Assembly: GCF_030013205.1 (NCBI RefSeq)
Contig: NZ_CP122648.1
Reading direction: 5' to 3' (one strand)
DNA: 64,000 nucleotides
From: Escherichia coli
GTDB lineage: Bacteria; Pseudomonadota; Gammaproteobacteria; Enterobacterales; Enterobacteriaceae
This document shows, one piece after another, positions 3,928 through 9,486 of the stretch. Within the stretch, counting starts at the first letter, position 1. Each line of letters begins with the position of its first letter. A program made the position numbers and the translations under genes. The notes under the pieces were generated by a model. That model searched no databases, had not been told where the DNA came from, and saw nothing but the letters and a program-made list of their open reading frames with translations.

Positions 3928-5310
3928 ATGAAGAGTGAAGTGTTGTCCGTTAAAGAGAAAATTGGTTATGGCATGGGAGACGCCGCCAGCCACATTATTT
4001 TCGATAACGTAATGTTATATATGATGTTCTTTTATACCGATATTTTTGGCATTCCTGCCGGATTTGTCGGAACCATGTTTTTGGTCGCTCGTGCACTGGA
4101 TGCGATTTCCGATCCTTGCATGGGGTTGTTGGCCGATCGAACGCGCTCTCGCTGGGGTAAATTTCGTCCGTGGGTACTGTTTGGCGCACTGCCATTTGGG
4201 ATCGTCTGTGTACTGGCCTATAGCACGCCAGATCTCAGTATGAACGGCAAAATGATCTATGCAGCAATTACTTACACCCTACTTACCTTACTTTATACCG
4301 TCGTCAATATCCCTTACTGCGCATTGGGTGGTGTAATCACCAATGACCCGACTCAGCGTATCTCGCTGCAATCCTGGCGTTTTGTGCTGGCGACCGCGGG
4401 AGGCATGCTCTCTACTGTTCTGATGATGCCACTGGTTAATTTAATTGGCGGTGATAATAAACCACTCGGTTTCCAGGGCGGTATCGCGGTCCTTTCCGTG
4501 GTGGCATTCATGATGCTGGCATTTTGTTTCTTCACCACTAAAGAACGCGTTGAAGCACCACCTACAACGACGTCTATGCGGGAAGATTTACGTGATATCT
4601 GGCAAAACGACCAGTGGCGGATTGTCGGTTTACTAACCATTTTCAATATCCTGGCGGTGTGCGTACGCGGTGGGGCGATGATGTATTACGTCACATGGAT
4701 TTTGGGTACGCCGGAAGTGTTTGTCGCTTTTCTCACCACTTATTGCGTGGGTAACCTGATTGGTTCCGCACTGGCAAAACCGCTGACCGACTGGAAATGT
4801 AAAGTCACTATCTTCTGGTGGACGAACGCCCTGCTGGCAGTGATTAGCCTCGCGATGTTCTTTGTTCCTATGCAGGCCAGCATCACTATATTTGTCTTCA
4901 TCTTCGTGATTGGTGTGTTGCATCAACTGGTGACACCTATCCAGTGGGTAATGATGTCCGATACCGTCGACTACGGCGAGTGGTGCAATGGTAAACGCCT
5001 GACCGGGATCAGTTTTGCTGGCACGCTGTTTGTGCTCAAACTGGGGTTGGCCTTCGGCGGCGCTCTTATCGGCTGGATGCTGGCTTATGGCGGATATGAT
5101 GCGGCAGAAAAAGCGCAGAACAGCGCCACGATTAGCATCATTATTGCGCTATTCACGATTGTTCCGGCGATCTGTTATTTGCTGAGCGCGATTATCGCTA
5201 AACGCTACTACTCACTCACGACGCACAATCTGAAAACCGTTATGGAACAGCTGGCCCAGGGCAAACGCCGTTGCCAGCAACAATTCACCTCTCAAGAAGT
5301 GCAGAACTAA
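3928..5310 (+). CDS. yicJ: GPH-family (glycoside-pentoside-hexuronide:cation symporter) transporter YicJ, 460 aa
   Basis: 460-aa membrane protein MKSEVLSVKEKIGYGMGDAASHIIFDNVMLYMMFFYTDIFG...; directly upstream of yicI as in E. coli. Confidence 0.9.
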   Translation: MKSEVLSVKEKIGYGMGDAASHIIFDNVMLYMMFFYTDIFGIPAGFVGTMFLVARALDAISDPCMGLLADRTRSRWGKFRPWVLFGALPFGIVCVLAYSTPDLSMNGKMIYAAITYTLLTLLYTVVNIPYCALGGVITNDPTQRISLQSWRFVLATAGGMLSTVLMMPLVNLIGGDNKPLGFQGGIAVLSVVAFMMLAFCFFTTKERVEAPPTTTSMREDLRDIWQNDQWRIVGLLTIFNILAVCVRGGAMMYYVTWILGTPEVFVAFLTTYCVGNLIGSALAKPLTDWKCKVTIFWWTNALLAVISLAMFFVPMQASITIFVFIFVIGVLHQLVTPIQWVMMSDTVDYGEWCNGKRLTGISFAGTLFVLKLGLAFGGALIGWMLAYGGYDAAEKAQNSATISIIIALFTIVPAICYLLSAIIAKRYYSLTTHNLKTVMEQLAQGKRRCQQQFTSQEVQN

Positions 5311-5319
5311 GGAACGGCA

Positions 5320-7638
5320 ATGAAAATTAGCGACGGAAACTGGTTGATTCAACCTGGCCTCAATTTGATTCACCCGCTTCAGGTGTTCGAGGTTGAACAG
5401 CAGGGTAATGAAATGGTGGTCTATGCTGCCCCCCGTGATGTGCGTGAACGAACCTGGCAGCTTGATACGCCTTTATTTACGCTGCGCTTTTTCTCCCCAC
5501 AGGAAGGTATTGTCGGTGTACGGATTGAGCATTTTCAGGGGGCGCTGAATAACGGTCCTCATTATCCGCTCAATATTTTGCAGGACGTGAAGGTCACAAT
5601 CGAAAACACAGAACGTTACGCTGAGTTTAAAAGTGGCAACTTAAGCGCGCGTGTCAGCAAAGGTGAGTTCTGGTCACTGGATTTTCTGCGCAACGGCGAA
5701 CGTATTACCGGTAGTCAGGTGAAAAATAATGGCTACGTGCAGGACACGAATAATCAACGAAATTATATGTTTGAGCGGCTGGATCTTGGCGTTGGCGAAA
5801 CAGTTTACGGTCTGGGAGAGCGCTTTACTGCCCTGGTGCGCAATGGCCAGACGGTAGAGACCTGGAACCGGGACGGCGGCACAAGTACTGAACAGGCGTA
5901 TAAAAATATTCCGTTCTATATGACTAACCGTGGTTATGGGGTACTGGTCAATCATCCTCAATGCGTCTCTTTTGAAGTGGGATCGGAGAAAGTCTCCAAA
6001 GTGCAGTTCAGCGTTGAGAGTGAATATCTCGAATACTTTGTTATCGACGGCCCGACGCCGAAAGCGGTACTTGATCGTTATACCCGTTTTACTGGTCGTC
6101 CGGCGCTGCCGCCCGCGTGGTCCTTCGGCCTGTGGCTAACCACTTCATTTACCACCAACTACGACGAAGCGACGGTAAACAGCTTTATCGATGGTATGGC
6201 GGAACGCAATCTGCCACTGCATGTTTTCCACTTTGACTGTTTCTGGATGAAAGCCTTCCAGTGGTGCGATTTTGAGTGGGACCCGCTGACTTTCCCGGAC
6301 CCGGAAGGGATGATCCGCCGCCTGAAAGCGAAAGGGCTAAAAATCTGCGTCTGGATTAACCCCTATATCGGGCAAAAATCCCCTGTCTTTAAAGAGTTAC
6401 AAGAGAAAGGCTATTTACTCAAACGCCCGGACGGTTCGTTATGGCAGTGGGATAAATGGCAGCCAGGTCTGGCGATTTATGACTTTACCAATCCGGATGC
6501 CTGCAAATGGTACGCCGACAAACTGAAAGGTCTGGTCGCGATGGGCGTTGATTGCTTTAAGACCGACTTTGGCGAACGTATTCCAACCGATGTTCAGTGG
6601 TTTGACGGTTCCGATCCGCAGAAAATGCATAACCATTATGCGTACATCTACAACGAACTGGTGTGGAAAGTGCTCAAGGAAACCGTTGGCGAGGAAGAAG
6701 CCGTCTTGTTTGCTCGCTCGGCCTCCGTTGGTGCGCAGAAATTCCCGGTACACTGGGGTGGTGACTGTTACGCTAACTACGAATCAATGGCGGAAAGCCT
6801 GCGCGGTGGTTTGTCTATTGGCCTTTCAGGTTTTGGTTTCTGGAGCCACGATATCGGCGGCTTTGAGAATACCGCTCCGGCGCACGTTTACAAACGCTGG
6901 TGCGCGTTTGGTTTGCTCTCCAGCCATAGCCGTTTACATGGCAGCAAATCTTATCGTGTGCCGTGGGCCTACGATGATGAGTCCTGTGATGTGGTGCGCT
7001 TCTTCACGCAACTGAAATGCCGCATGATGCCGTATCTGTATCGTGAAGCTGCTCGTGCGAACGCGCGGGGTACGCCGATGATGCGGGCCATGATGATGGA
7101 GTTCCCGGACGATCCGGCTTGTGATTACCTTGACCGTCAATACATGTTAGGCGACAACGTGATGGTTGCTCCGGTGTTCACTGAAGCGGGCGATGTGCAG
7201 TTCTACTTGCCGGAAGGTCGCTGGACACATCTGTGGCACAACGATGAACTCGATGGTAGTCGCTGGCATAAACAGCAGCACAGCTTCCTGAGTCTGCCCG
7301 TTTATGTGCGTGATAACACCCTACTGGCGCTGGGCAACAACGAGCAACGTCCCGATTACGCGTGGCACGAAGGCACGGCATTCCAGCTCTTTAATCTACA
7401 AGACGGGCATGAAGCCATCTGTGAAGTGCCCGCTGCTGACGGTTCCGTTCTTTTCACCCTGAAAGCGGCGCGTACTGGCAACACGATTACTGTGACTGGT
7501 GCGGGCGAGGCGAAGAACTGGACACTGTGCTTGCGCAATGTTGTGAAAGTAAATGGTCTGCAAGGTGGTTCGCAGGCTGAAAGTGAGCAGGGACTGGTGG
7601 TGACTCCTCAAGGGAATGCGCTGACAATTACGTTGTAA
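5320..7638 (+). CDS. yicI: Alpha-xylosidase YicI (glycoside hydrolase family 31), 772 aa
   Basis: 772-aa ORF with GH31 hallmarks (WIDMNE-like region ...KTDFGERIP...); recognised as YicI. Confidence 0.9.
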
Positions 7639-7651
7639 TCTATTGAAGAAT

Positions 7652-7683
7652 GCCGGATACGAATGGTTTTGTGTCGTATCCGG
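7652..7683 (+). terminator. Stem-loop (GCCGGATACG ... CGTATCCGG) just after the yicI stop; REP-like or terminator hairpin
   Basis: Perfect 9-10 bp inverted repeat 14 bp after the yicI TAA; no strong U-tract. Confidence 0.45.
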
Positions 7684-7932
7684 TAAATAATCTCACATCT
7701 GGTAATAAATATTTCTTCCATCGTATTTGCGAGCATGATCACGATTATTCATCACGAAAATGTGATCTGTGCCGAAAAATATCTATTAACCGCCCCGTTT
7801 TGTTTTATACATGTCCGGACTACGGACAGATTTTAGTATTGTTGTGAAATTATTCTGCTTTATATTTACCCTCAGAGATGGCAACTGAAGCTCTTCCACA
7901 TGGGGCTTCTTAATCTGTGATAAGGGTAAAAA

Positions 7933-9486
7933 ATGCAAATGATTACCTCGCGACAAAACAGATTATTACGATTCCTTTTACCACGAAGGGAATATACGAC
8001 TATTGTTACGATTGCCGGCTATTTAAATGTTTCGGAAAAAACCATTCAACGTGATTTACGTTTACTTGAGCAATGGCTGGAACAATGGCGAATAACCGTT
8101 GAGAAGCGTGCTGGCGCAGGTGTGATGTTAGACTCGAAGAATATTACTGATTTGCTGCATCTTGATCATTTGTTGGGAGCAGAATGTGAAGAGATTGATG
8201 GTGTAATGAATAATGCCAGGCGCGTTAAAATAGCGTCGCAGTTATTAAGTGAAACACCGAATGAAACGTCGATCAGTAAATTGTCAGAGCGCTATTTTAT
8301 CAGTGGAGCCTCTATTGTTAATGACCTGAGAGTGATTGAGTCCTGGCTTGCGCCGTTGGGGTTATCATTGATCCGAAGCCCAAGTGGTACGCATATTGAA
8401 GGTAGTGAAGGGCAAGTCCGACAGGCAATGGCATTACTGATTAACGGCATTATTAACCATAATGAGCCGCAAGGTGTCGTGTATTCACGTCTGGATCCCG
8501 GAAGTTATAAAGCATTAGTCCATTATTTTGGAGAAGAAGAGGTGTTATTTGTCCAGTCATTGTTACTGGATATGGAAAATGAATTAAGTTGGTCTTTGGG
8601 AGAGCCTTATTACGTTAACATTTTTACTCACATCCTTATTATGATGTATCGCAACACGCACGGGAATGCGTTATCCAGAGAAGAAGATCAAACCAGGCAA
8701 TATGATGAAAATATCTTTAATGTTGCCAGTCAGATGATTCATAAGATAGAACAACGAATTGCACATACATTGCCCGATGATGAAGTCTGGTTTATTTATC
8801 AATATATCATTTCATCAGGTGTGGCGATTGATGGACAAAAAGATGTTAGCATTATTTCACATATGCAGGCCAGCAATGAAGCGCGTCTGATTACCTGGCG
8901 TTTAATTACGGTATTCAGTGACATCGTGGACTGCGATTTTAGTGAAGACAGCGCATTATATGATGGCTTGTTGGTTCATATTAAGCCGCTGATTAACCGA
9001 CTAAATTATCGCATTCATATCCGTAATCCATTGCTGGAAGATATTAAAGCAGAATTAGCGGATGTCTGGCGGTTGACGCAATATGTGGTGAATCAGGTAT
9101 TTAAAACCTGGGGTGAGAATGCAGTGAGCGAGGATGAAGTAGGTTACCTGACCGTTCATTTTCAGGCTGCGATGGAGCGGCAAATTGCCCGTAAACGTGT
9201 ATTACTGGTCTGTTCAACCGGAATCGGAACTTCGCATCTACTGAAAAGCCGTATTCTGCGAGCATTTCCTGAATGGACGATTGTTGATGTTATTTCAGCA
9301 GCGAATTTATCACAGGTTTTGCCTGACAATATCGAACTGATTATTTCGACCATTAATTTGCCTACAGTCACTATGCCGGTCGCTTATGTTACCGCTTTTT
9401 TTAATGATGCCGATATTAAGCGAGTCACTGAAATGGTGATTACGGAAAAATTACATCATGCGACATCTCGGGTCGTTGAAATTTAA
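7933..9486 (+). CDS. PRD-containing transcriptional activator (BglG/LicR/MtlR type) with N-terminal HTH and C-terminal PTS EIIB-like domain, 517 aa
   Basis: N-terminal winged-helix region (TIVTIAGYLNVSEKTIQRDLRLLEQ), central PRD-like regions, C-terminal LLVCSTGIGTSHLLKSRI (EIIB-Gat-like phosphorylatable Cys motif); heads a PTS operon. Confidence 0.7.
   Translation: MQMITSRQNRLLRFLLPRREYTTIVTIAGYLNVSEKTIQRDLRLLEQWLEQWRITVEKRAGAGVMLDSKNITDLLHLDHLLGAECEEIDGVMNNARRVKIASQLLSETPNETSISKLSERYFISGASIVNDLRVIESWLAPLGLSLIRSPSGTHIEGSEGQVRQAMALLINGIINHNEPQGVVYSRLDPGSYKALVHYFGEEEVLFVQSLLLDMENELSWSLGEPYYVNIFTHILIMMYRNTHGNALSREEDQTRQYDENIFNVASQMIHKIEQRIAHTLPDDEVWFIYQYIISSGVAIDGQKDVSIISHMQASNEARLITWRLITVFSDIVDCDFSEDSALYDGLLVHIKPLINRLNYRIHIRNPLLEDIKAELADVWRLTQYVVNQVFKTWGENAVSEDEVGYLTVHFQAAMERQIARKRVLLVCSTGIGTSHLLKSRILRAFPEWTIVDVISAANLSQVLPDNIELIISTINLPTVTMPVAYVTAFFNDADIKRVTEMVITEKLHHATSRVVEI

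What the first reader, a model, noticed from the sequence alone, without database searches (positions are those of the whole stretch)
7733..7768. Candidate operator upstream of the island regulator: ATCACGA direct repeats plus ATCAC-N6-GTGAT palindrome
The putative promoter region of the PTS island contains GATCACGATT and CATCACGAAA half-sites followed by the palindrome ATCACGAAAATGTGAT. The half-sites are in the opposite order to a CRP site (TGTGA-N6-TCACA), so this is probably not CRP. Such repeat structure suggests a dimeric regulator operator, possibly for autoregulation of the PRD activator or an unknown repressor.
Basis: seen in the sequence. Interest (0 to 1): 0.3.

Follow-up and report, generated by a model that had tools for sequence, protein, structure and literature searches.

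The report
CRP-type sites upstream of frz promoter
The repeats sit in the control region of the known E. coli "frz" sugar-uptake island, but comparison with 30 related islands shows the proposed palindrome is a chance pairing of parts of two neighbouring catabolite-regulator (CRP)-type sites, an ordinary arrangement, while the island's own regulator most likely binds a different, better-conserved palindrome about 50 bp downstream.

Summary
As a class such patterns are common. The window holds 94 perfect 5+5 inverted repeats with a 6-nt spacer.

The locus is the known frz operon of extraintestinal pathogenic E. coli. It lies between yicI and yicH and is present in about 1600 of 5426 complete genomes.

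Comparison with 30 orthologous loci (97-53% regulator identity) shows the inner ATCAC, the left arm of the palindrome, is not conserved. The outer TCAC and the GTGATC are invariant, but each belongs to a different 16-mer:
- S1, TGCGAgcatgaTCACG, 7728-7743.
- S2, TGTGATctgtgCCGAA, 7761-7776.

S1 fits a CRP matrix built from 127 RegulonDB sites: 10.7 bits here and 7.9-13.2 bits in 22 orthologues. Its spacer varies freely. S2 keeps a fixed distance of 48-51 bp from a third element, S3.

S3 is TGTCC-N7/8-GGACA at 7812-7828, just upstream of a conserved -35/-10. S3 travels with the regulator as far as Vibrio, so it is the better candidate for the regulator's own operator.

My reading is cAMP-CRP co-activation upstream of an activator-dependent promoter. 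Nothing here was tested by binding or expression. It is an ordinary architecture and of low interest.

The parts
7733..7768 (.). It covers the spacer and right half of S1, a non-conserved linker that holds the second ATCACGA copy, and the left half of S2.
7728..7743 (.). S1: CRP-type 16-mer TGCGAGCATGATCACG (TGnGA-N6-TCAC). The inferred centre is about -137.5 relative to the inferred start site.
   Evidence: PWM 8.1 bits (127 sites) or 10.7 bits (98 refined sites). That is the 67th-73rd percentile of known sites, and only 6 positions in the 64 kb score as high. It scores 7.9-13.2 bits in 22 orthologues, with core bases invariant and the spacer free. It is the top position for mean PWM score across the alignment, and random palindromic matrices reach that score in 0.2% of trials. 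It shares TGCGAGCATG with the RegulonDB bglG CRP site.
7751..7757 (.). It is specific to the E. coli lineage and not conserved.
   Evidence: It reads ATCGCGA in Escherichia sp., and AGCGTGA, GTCCAAA, CCGCGAA and others elsewhere. Pairing is 39%.
7761..7776 (.). S2: TGTGATCTGTGCCGAA. The left half TGTGATC is invariant and preceded by an A-tract; the right half is weak. The inferred centre is about -104.5.
   Evidence: 8.0-8.4 bits in this window and 0.7-8.4 bits in close orthologues. It lies 48-51 bp upstream of S3 in all 16 Enterobacterales taxa tabulated. In Pectobacterium, Brenneria, Pantoea and Erwinia the equivalent site has two halves, scores 8.2-12.2 bits, and is the first- or second-ranked hit in 620 bp of upstream sequence.
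7800..7838 (.). S3 block: palindrome TGTCCGGACTACGGACA (7812-7828) with conserved flanks (TTGTyTTATTT on the 5' side, GATTTTAGTA on the 3' side). This is the predicted operator of the PRD activator FrzR, centred at about -53.
   Evidence: It is the only TGTCC-N7/8-GGACA in the window, against 0.03 expected. It is present with ATTTAGTATTG in all 31 loci, including Vibrio and Celerinatantimonas. It is a perfect 18-bp palindrome in Superficieibacter and K. aerogenes. The closest analogue is the B. subtilis MtlR operator, 42 bp long and 7 bp from the -35 (PMC3217849).
7839..7844 (+). Inferred -35 hexamer TTGTTG. It matches 3 of 6 consensus bases, as expected for an activator-dependent promoter.
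   Evidence: TTGnnn is conserved directly after TTTAGTA in all loci. It falls below the threshold of the tool's promoter scan.
7861..7866 (+). Inferred -10 hexamer TATATT. The start site is inferred at about 7873-7874.
   Evidence: TATATT, TAGATT or TACATT is conserved 17 bp after the -35 in all other taxa, and 16 bp after it in E. coli. No start-site data are available.
7887..7909 (+). Hairpin in the inferred 5' leader (GAAGCTC...GGGCTTC).
   Evidence: -14.9 kcal/mol for the whole leader, z = -1.4. The stem changes to GGAGCG/CGCTTC and GGAGCT/AGCTTC in other genera (read by eye).
7933..9486 (+). frzR: a 517-aa regulator with HTH_11, an Mga HTH domain, two PRD domains and an EIIB-like domain.
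7652..7684 (+). Hairpin after the yicI stop codon, shared in a variant form with K-12-type genomes. Island-specific DNA begins just after it.
   Evidence: -18.3 kcal/mol, z = -5.2

Best explanation
The flagged bases belong to the distal part of the control region of the frz operon promoter.

The promoter itself is inferred: -35 TTGTTG at 7839, -10 TATATT at 7861, start near 7873. It has a weak -35 and is preceded directly by a conserved block of about 40 bp with the palindrome TGTCC-N7/8-GGACA (S3). This block is the most likely binding site of the island's own PRD-type activator FrzR, which would then also control its own synthesis.

Two CRP-type sites lie further upstream on roughly the same helical face:
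- S2, TGTGATctgtgCCGAA, centre about -104.5.
- S1, TGCGAgcatgaTCACG, centre about -137.5, 33 bp from S2.

cAMP-CRP bound there would couple frz expression to carbon limitation. It would act together with promoter-proximal FrzR, as CRP does from about -103 to -107 at other promoters that have a second activator.

Shown here: sequence, conservation pattern, matrix scores, co-occurrence with the regulator. Inferred: the start site, which protein binds which site, and the direction of regulation.
For: - Locus identity. The island is the frz operon between yicI and yicH.
- Conservation pattern. Homology among 22 loci starts abruptly at about 7723. TTTGnGA, TCAC and TGTGATC are invariant, while the S1 spacer and the S1-S2 linker vary.
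- CRP matrix. It was built from 127 RegulonDB cores in Table S4 of PMC3105977. S1 scores 8.1/10.7 bits and S2 8.0/8.4 bits. There are four hits of at least 8 bits in 7639-7932 against 0.21 in dinucleotide shuffles, and 0 of 2000 shuffles reach four.
- S1 in orthologues. It scores 7.9-13.2 bits. Superficieibacter has TGTGAtcgctaTCACT and Escherichia sp. has TGCGA..TCACA. It is the best conserved-score position, P about 0.002 against random palindromic matrices.
- S2 position. The S2-equivalent lies 48-51 bp upstream of S3 in all 16 Enterobacterales taxa tabulated. It is a two-half site and the first- or second-ranked hit in Pectobacterium, Brenneria, Pantoea and Erwinia.
- Precedents. TGCGA and TCACG half-sites and one-half sites are present among accepted CRP sites (bglG, xylA, srlA, yiaK, acs). 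Activator sites at -103.5 to -107.5 are listed for prpB, yiaK, nagB, dcuB and gltA.
- S3. S3 plus -35/-10 is conserved in all 31 loci.
- Regulator type. FrzR has DNA-binding HTH/Mga domains and no RNA-binding CAT domain.
Against: - There are no binding, start-site or expression data. The two primary frz papers (PMC2698472 and Reperant 2011) could not be read, so a mapped promoter or a reported CRP box may already exist or may contradict the inferred start.
- A two-mismatch CRP core is common by chance: 19 in the window against 25.6 expected.
- As a full CRP site, S2 is weak in many close orthologues, down to 0.7 bits. Its invariant TGTGATCTG could serve another protein.
- Positions -104.5 and -137.5 are too far for direct class I/II contact and depend on an inferred start.
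- The S2-to-start distance varies by 3 bp among taxa.
- Vibrio and Celerinatantimonas loci lack both sites.
- The matrix was trained on a list that includes misaligned or weak sites.
Confidence: 0.55

Rival explanations
1. ATCAC-N6-GTGAT, with the ATCACGA direct repeats, is the operator of a dimeric regulator. That regulator would be FrzR acting on its own promoter or an unknown repressor, not CRP.
For: The strings exist and are invariant in four E. coli allele classes. The exact palindrome is unique in the window. The register scores far below CRP sites.
Against: The left arm is not conserved even in Escherichia sp. at 97% regulator identity (ATCGC). Only 39% of pair cells are formed in 23 orthologues, against 27-59% in slid controls, with no double changes. 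This pattern class is abundant by chance. The regulator travels with S3, not with this site.
Confidence: 0.04
2. S1 and S2 form one large dyad-symmetric distal operator of about 45 bp, from 7728 to 7776, for a single multimeric regulator. That could be a second, distal FrzR site, since Mga/AtxA-type regulators bind long, poorly defined sites. It could also be another sugar-specific factor.
For: The S1-S2 spacing is exactly 33 bp in the 22 close loci (window + L002-L022) plus K. aerogenes, Izhakiella and Mangrovibacter. The long inverted repeat pairs the S1 spacer and right half with the S2 left half and spacer. It is formed in 75% of cells against 31-51% when slid, with 5 pairs changed on both sides. 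The S2 right half is a poor CRP half.
Against: The spacing is 36 bp in Erwinia. S1 is absent in Pectobacterium and Pantoea, where S2 alone is a self-symmetric CRP-like 16-mer. Both sites are missing in Vibrio and Celerinatantimonas, which keep FrzR and S3. Two adjacent self-symmetric sites of the same motif are expected to look mutually symmetric. The structure was derived from the E. coli sequence, which inflates the slid-control contrast (caveat stated).
Confidence: 0.15
3. The conserved bases act for another reason. They could be a second promoter, an UP-like or A-tract bending element, or sites for a nucleoid protein (Fis, IHF, H-NS) or an unrelated regulator that recognises TGTGATCTG.
For: An A-tract and AAATATCT flank S2 and are conserved. 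S2 conservation is concentrated in TGTGATC plus its flanks rather than in a full dyad. The region is AT-rich island DNA.
Against: No -35/-10 pair is conserved around S1/S2. The S1 information profile (TG.GA, free 6-nt spacer, TCAC) is that of CRP. Random matrices rarely fit as well.
Confidence: 0.16
4. The inverted repeats act as RNA or DNA hairpins. They would be a terminator or attenuator for transcription reading through from yicI, or a target for antitermination by the 'BglG-family' regulator.
For: As RNA, 7725-7780 folds to -14.4 kcal/mol (z = -2.8). S3 followed by a T-run is flagged as terminator-like at -9.5 kcal/mol (z = -2.7). RefSeq names the regulator 'BglG family transcription antiterminator'.
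Against: FrzR has HTH and Mga DNA-binding domains and no CAT domain. Rfam gives no match even at E = 10. Upstream genes differ in identity and orientation among taxa (divergent parC in Erwinia, Pantoea and Brenneria), so read-through cannot be the conserved context. The S3 stem is only 5 bp in many taxa and its T-run is the conserved -35 flank. The inner pairs of the S1-S2 fold are mostly unpaired in orthologues.
Confidence: 0.05

Closest known systems
cAMP-CRP sites far upstream of a promoter that also needs a specific, promoter-proximal activator. Examples in the RegulonDB list of PMC3105977 Table S4 are yiaK at -105.5, prpBCDE at -103.5 and nagB at -104.5. uhpT at -103.5 is from my own memory.
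   Same: - A 16-bp TGnGA-N6-TCAC dyad with a free spacer.
- Scores within the range of accepted sites.
- An inferred position of about -104.5, with a second site one CRP-site length plus 17 bp further up.
- A weak -35, and a specific activator site between CRP and RNA polymerase.
   Different: Nothing has been tested by binding or genetics. The start site is inferred. S2 has only one good half in E. coli and its closest relatives. A 33-bp tandem spacing is not one of the classical tandem arrangements (for example 52-53 bp at CytR-regulated promoters, from my memory).
bglG promoter CRP site (TGCGAGCATGGTCATA, -61.5; RegulonDB entry in PMC3105977 Table S4).
   Same: S1 (TGCGAGCATGATCACG) shares the first ten bases, TGCGAGCATG, and 13 of 16 positions. 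This shows that a TGCGA half-site is compatible with an accepted CRP site.
   Different: The position relative to the promoter differs. The bgl operon is controlled by an RNA-binding antiterminator, whereas frz has a DNA-binding PRD activator.
Operator of the B. subtilis PRD activator MtlR (PMC3217849), and by extension of ManR/LicR-class regulators.
   Same: Both are a short palindrome inside a conserved block of about 40 bp that ends a few bp upstream of a weak -35. Both regulators have HTH, Mga, two PRD domains and an EIIB-like domain, and both control their own gene as well.
   Different: The half-site sequences differ: TGTCC..GGACA here, against TTGTCACA..TGTGCCAA in the mtlA primers of that paper. 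FrzR is about 140 aa shorter than its Firmicute relatives. The global co-regulator would be CRP rather than CcpA/cre. FrzR binding is untested.
Sxy-dependent CRP-S sites (TGCGA-N6-TCGCA). The consensus is from my memory of Cameron and Redfield 2006; sbmC, ppdD and hofM are the examples listed.
   Same: The left half of S1 is TGCGA, with C at the third core position.
   Different: Only one half has it. The other half is TCAC(G/A/T), and orthologues have TGTGA or TGAGA at the same place. It is therefore an ordinary CRP-type site.

Membership tests
CRP (CAP) binding site | 16-bp dyad TGTGA-N6-TCACA, with G at core position 2/4 and C at 13/15. | tested here: met
   S1 is TGCGA-N6-TCACG, matching 8 of 10 core bases with both key G and both key C present. 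S2 is TGTGA-N6-CCGAA, with a perfect left half and 2 of 5 in the right half. The discriminating bases are of CRP type, not FNR type (sequence reading).
CRP (CAP) binding site | Matrix score within the range of accepted sites and rare in background. | tested here: met
   S1 scores 10.7 bits, the 73rd percentile of the refined set, with only 6 positions as good in 64 kb. S2 scores 8.4 bits, the 45th percentile. The region holds 4 hits against 0.21 in shuffles. For S2 in close orthologues the result is inconclusive, at 0.7-8.4 bits.
CRP (CAP) binding site | Core half-sites conserved in orthologues while the 6-bp spacer drifts. | tested here: met
   For S1, T, G, G, A and T, C, A, C are invariant in 26 loci and the spacer columns carry little information. 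The conserved-score test gives P about 0.002.
CRP (CAP) binding site | A position compatible with activation relative to a mapped start site. | tested here: inconclusive
   The start is inferred from the conserved -10. The centres would be about -104.5 and -137.5. The first matches listed activator sites at -103.5 to -107.5.
CRP (CAP) binding site | cAMP-dependent binding of CRP, and crp/cya dependence of expression. | not testable with these tools
   K-12 lacks the island, so published K-12 SELEX and ChIP data cannot cover it. No paper in the held library links frz to CRP.
Its palindrome is not conserved. S1 and S2 are absent in the Vibrio and Celerinatantimonas loci, which keep the regulator.
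Operator of an MtlR/ManR/LicR-class PRD activator (applied to S3, 7800-7838) | A short palindrome within a conserved block of about 40 bp ending a few bp from a weak -35, co-occurring with the regulator. | tested here: met
   TGTCC-N7/8-GGACA plus nnATTTAGTATTG is present in 31 of 31 loci. Binding itself cannot be tested here.
BglG/SacY/LicT-type antitermination (RAT plus terminator) | A regulator with an N-terminal CAT RNA-binding domain, and a RAT element overlapping a terminator in the leader. | tested here: not met
   Pfam finds HTH_11, Mga, two PRD domains and PTS_IIB, and no CAT domain. Rfam finds nothing in 7600-8000 at E up to 10.
   The right arm is invariant and the left arm is not. 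Pairing is 39%, with 0 pairs changed on both sides, no better than slid controls.

The most novel reading that the evidence does not exclude
The frz control region would be the first worked-out example in Proteobacteria of an Mga/AtxA/MtlR-class PRD activator with a defined operator. That operator is TGTCC-N8-GGACA-nn-ATTTAGTA abutting the -35, conserved from E. coli to Vibrio. In Enterobacterales only, it would have been placed under cAMP-CRP through one or two upstream sites at a fixed distance. A Gram-positive-style PTS regulator would thus have been rewired from CcpA to CRP control in an ExPEC fitness island.
Probability: 0.4. Interest if true: 0.35.

Novelty: new member of a known kind. 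Interest (0 to 1): 0.18.

Why it matters
frz is a fitness- and virulence-associated metabolic island of extraintestinal pathogenic E. coli whose inducing sugar and regulation are still unclear. A concrete map of its control region (promoter, predicted FrzR operator, CRP-type sites) gives direct targets for reporter fusions and footprinting. It also suggests that the reported late-stationary-phase and nutrient-limitation phenotypes could be routed through cAMP-CRP. Beyond that the architecture is textbook: a global catabolite regulator upstream of a pathway-specific activator.

Tried and rejected
- **Literature.** The original frz paper (PMC2698472) is not held. The yicJI paper is not in the library. 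No held paper links frz with CRP. I could not check whether a promoter or a CRP box was already published.
- **Promoter scan.** The tool found none in 7500-8100 because the -35 matches only 3 of 6 bases. The promoter was assigned from conservation instead.
- **Rfam.** A permissive search of 7600-8000 found nothing.
- **CRP consensus with 2 mismatches.** This is uninformative on its own: 19 found against 25.6 expected. I replaced it with a matrix from published sites and with cross-species tests.
- **FNR and CRP-S readings of S1.** Both were rejected on the discriminating bases and on the orthologue variants.
- **Dam GATC sites (7737-7740 and 7764-7767).** The first is specific to E. coli, and the second is simply part of TGTGATCT. 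I did not pursue this.
- **Small ORFs (7650-7847 on the + strand, 7786-7956 on the - strand).** Homology starts only at about 7723 and the alignment contains single-base indels, so these are not coding.
- **Other copies of S3 in the window, for example near yicJ.** None were found beyond chance.

Full report
**Where we are**

The window is E. coli chromosome near selC. It carries yicJ (3928-5310) and yicI (5320-7638). A 7.2-kb island follows, and then yicH lies on the minus strand.

The island encodes:
- a 517-aa regulator (7933-9486);
- EIIA, EIIB and EIIC of a fructose-family PTS;
- two class II aldolases;
- a ROK kinase;
- a lyxose-isomerase/cupin protein.

This is the frz operon of extraintestinal pathogenic E. 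coli. It is described as genomic region GR27 in strain BEN2908 and cited to Rouquet et al. 2009. It is present in about 1600 of 5426 complete E. coli genomes. Genomes of the K-12/B type (represented by the B-derived strain T7 Express) have only 52 bp between yicI and yicH. The island starts just after a hairpin that both genome types share, at 7652-7684.

**The observation**

The strings are exactly as reported:
- ATCACGA at 7738-7744 and 7751-7757;
- ATCAC-N6-GTGAT at 7751-7766.

The exact palindrome is unique in the window, against 0.07 expected. That figure is post hoc. The 7-mer is not enriched, at 11 found against 8.7 expected. The window contains 94 perfect 5+5 inverted repeats with a 6-nt spacer and 154 exact 7-mer direct repeats within 30 nt.

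**Conservation**

I collected two sets of orthologous loci.
- 21 loci at 97-70% regulator identity: Escherichia sp., Kosakonia, Phytobacter, Citrobacter, Superficieibacter and Buttiauxella.
- 9 more at 73-53% identity: K. aerogenes, Izhakiella, Mangrovibacter, Pectobacterium, Brenneria, Erwinia, Pantoea, Vibrio and Celerinatantimonas.

The flanking genes differ among these taxa. Upstream homology begins abruptly at about 7723.

- The outer TCAC (7739-7742) and TGTGATC (7761-7767) are invariant.
- The inner ATCACGA copy is not conserved. It reads ATCGCGA in Escherichia sp. and AGCGTGA, GTCCAAA or CCGCGAA elsewhere.
Slid controls give 27-59%, and there are no double changes.

**Re-parsing the conserved bases**

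The conserved bases fall into two 16-mers whose centres are 33 bp apart:
- S1, TGCGAgcatgaTCACG (7728-7743);
- S2, TGTGATctgtgCCGAA (7761-7776).

To test whether they resemble CRP sites, I built a symmetric weight matrix. It used 127 unique RegulonDB CRP cores listed in Table S4 of Shimada et al. 2011 (PMC3105977). I also made a refined version from the 98 sites that scored above 2 bits.

| Element | All 127 sites | Refined 98 sites | Note |
|---|---|---|---|
| S1 | 8.1 bits | 10.7 bits | 67th-73rd percentile of known sites; 6 positions as good in 64 kb |
| S2 | 8.0 bits | 8.4 bits | 45th percentile in the refined set |

The 294-bp intergenic region holds four hits of at least 8 bits, against 0.21 in dinucleotide-preserving shuffles. 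None of 2000 shuffles reached four.

Across 22 orthologues S1 scores 7.9-13.2 bits. Superficieibacter has TGTGAtcgctaTCACT and Escherichia sp. has TGCGA..TCACA. The core bases are invariant and the spacer drifts.

S1 is the best position for mean score over the alignment, at 9.7 bits. Random palindromic matrices of equal information reach that value in 0.2% of 3000 trials.

Accepted CRP sites include TGCGA and TCACG halves and sites with one good half: bglG TGCGAGCATGGTCATA, xylA, srlA, yiaK and acs. A bare two-mismatch consensus match is not significant by itself. The case therefore rests on the matrix plus conservation.

**S2 and the third element, S3**

As a full dyad, S2 is weak in many close relatives, at 0.7-8.4 bits. 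Its position, however, is fixed. It lies 48-51 bp upstream of S3 in all 16 Enterobacterales taxa tabulated.

In four genera the equivalent site has two good halves:
- Pectobacterium, CGTGATCGCGGTCTCA;
- Brenneria, TGTGATCGTGCGCTCA;
- Pantoea, TGTGACCGCGCTCGCA;
- Erwinia, TGTGATCTGCCTCCCA.

There it scores 8.2-12.2 bits and is the first- or second-ranked hit in 620 bp of upstream sequence.

S1 is more variable in its distribution:
- It lies 33 bp upstream of S2 in Enterobacteriaceae and Mangrovibacter.
- It lies 36 bp upstream in Erwinia.
- It is missing in Pectobacterium and Pantoea.
- Vibrio and Celerinatantimonas have neither site.

**S3 and the promoter**

S3 is TGTCCGGACTACGGACA (7812-7828). 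It is the only TGTCC-N7/8-GGACA in the window, against 0.03 expected.

It is followed by GATTTTAGTA and then TTGTTG (-35, 7839-7844). A 16-bp spacer and TATATT (-10, 7861-7866) come next. This whole arrangement is conserved in all 31 loci, including Vibrio. The promoter spacer is 17 bp in all other taxa. S3 is a perfect 18-bp palindrome in Superficieibacter and K. aerogenes.

The -35 matches only 3 of 6 consensus bases, which is why the scan tool reports no promoter. That weakness suits an activator-dependent promoter.

FrzR carries HTH_11 and Mga DNA-binding domains, two PRD domains and an EIIB-like domain. It has no CAT RNA-binding domain. Its nearest solved relatives by sequence are AtxA, AcpB and the PRD domains of LicT.

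The B. subtilis MtlR operator is a conserved 42-bp block with a short palindrome, 7 bp from the -35. It behaves as a class II-type activator site (PMC3217849). S3 matches that design and travels with the regulator, so it is the better candidate for the operator of the PRD activator.

**Model**

With an inferred start near 7873, the centres would be:
- S3 at about -53;
- S2 at about -104.5;
- S1 at about -137.5.

CRP activator sites at -103.5 to -107.5 are listed for several promoters in the RegulonDB table.

I therefore read the region as cAMP-CRP co-activation upstream of FrzR. The steps not shown here are the start site, who binds where, and the sign of regulation.

**Rivals**

- *One large dyad operator spanning S1 and S2.* This has some support. 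The long inverted repeat is formed in 75% of cells against 31-51% when slid, with five pairs changed on both sides. It is undercut by the Erwinia spacing, by the loss of S1 in Pectobacterium and Pantoea, and by the absence of both sites where FrzR and S3 persist. Two adjacent sites of one palindromic motif are also expected to mirror each other.
- *RNA hairpin, terminator or antiterminator readings.* These have modest fold energies. They lack an RNA-binding domain in the regulator, an Rfam match and a conserved upstream transcription context.
- *Another promoter, a bending element or a nucleoid-protein site.* This cannot be excluded for S2.

**Limits**

The two primary frz papers could not be read, and no held paper links frz to CRP. 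The promoter may already have been mapped. K-12 lacks the island, so K-12 CRP SELEX and ChIP data are silent on it.

**Verdict**

The sequence observation is real, but the pattern was mis-parsed. It is wrong on the operator and probably wrong on CRP. The architecture is ordinary, so interest is low.

Noticed in passing
L026 2606-3375 (E. coli strain N54, NZ_CM165885.1); equivalent to window position about 7805: An IS1A element is inserted 12 bp upstream of the S3 palindrome, with a 9-bp target duplication GCTTTGTTT. It moves the two CRP-type sites about 0.8 kb away from the frz promoter, which makes it a natural 5'-deletion variant in a CSF isolate.
   Followed up: partly
L011, L012, L013, L015, L020 (Citrobacter youngae, portucalensis, braakii, sp. 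wls619): between the leader hairpin and the ribosome-binding site of the frzR orthologue: An insertion of about 125-200 bp lies in the 5' leader (…TAACCTAAATAATTCGAGTTGCAGGAAGGCGGCGAC…GTGACTGGGGTGAGCG…). From memory it looks like an ERIC/IRU-type repeat. L012 carries a longer version.
   Followed up: no
window 7887-7909: A hairpin in the inferred frzR leader (GAAGCTC…GGGCTTC) appears to keep its pairing through different sequences in other genera: GGAGCG/CGCTTC in Citrobacter and GGAGCT/AGCTTC in Kosakonia. Its role is unknown, and it is not a canonical terminator.
   Followed up: partly
window 7916-7931: TGTGATAAGGGTAAAA overlaps the frzR ribosome-binding site and gives the highest CRP-matrix score in the intergenic region, at 10.0-11.6 bits. 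It is partly conserved: TGTGATAAGGGTAAAT in Citrobacter and TGTAATAAGGG in Superficieibacter. This is probably conservation of the translation-initiation region, but a downstream CRP site is not excluded.
   Followed up: partly
window 7812-7866 versus L003-L036: E. coli and Escherichia sp. carry two single-base deletions relative to nearly all other taxa. The S3 palindrome is 17 bp instead of 18 bp, and the -35/-10 spacer is 16 bp instead of 17 bp. Erwinia also has a 17-bp palindrome. The effect on activator geometry is unknown.
   Followed up: no
window 7773-7812 versus L023-L025: The window's allele of the frz upstream region is a minority type: 263 of about 1600 genomes are at least 99% identical to it. 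The main allele differs at 9 of 181 positions, and the differences cluster between S2 and S3. They include the S2 right half, which is CCGAA here and CTGAA or TTGAA elsewhere.
   Followed up: partly
L028, L029, L008 (K. aerogenes, Mangrovibacter, Citrobacter sp. MGH106) versus L033-L035: The frz-like operon lies directly downstream of a yicI-like GH31 gene in several other genera as well. In Brenneria, Erwinia and Pantoea it lies next to a divergently oriented parC. The linkage with yicJI may therefore be ancestral in Enterobacteriaceae rather than a feature of E. coli insertion.
   Followed up: no
P0102-P0120 (Bacillus, Paenibacillus, Priestia homologues, 653-684 aa) versus window 7933-9486: Firmicute relatives at about 40% identity are some 140 aa longer at the C-terminus than FrzR. 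In frz a separate 156-aa EIIA gene follows the regulator directly. Pfam did not name the extra Firmicute segment, so a split-domain relationship remains only a guess.
   Followed up: partly
window 7682-7697: GGTAAATAATCTCACA is a further CRP-matrix hit, at 8.1-8.6 bits. It lies in the E. coli-specific part of the island flank and has no counterpart in other genera.
   Followed up: no
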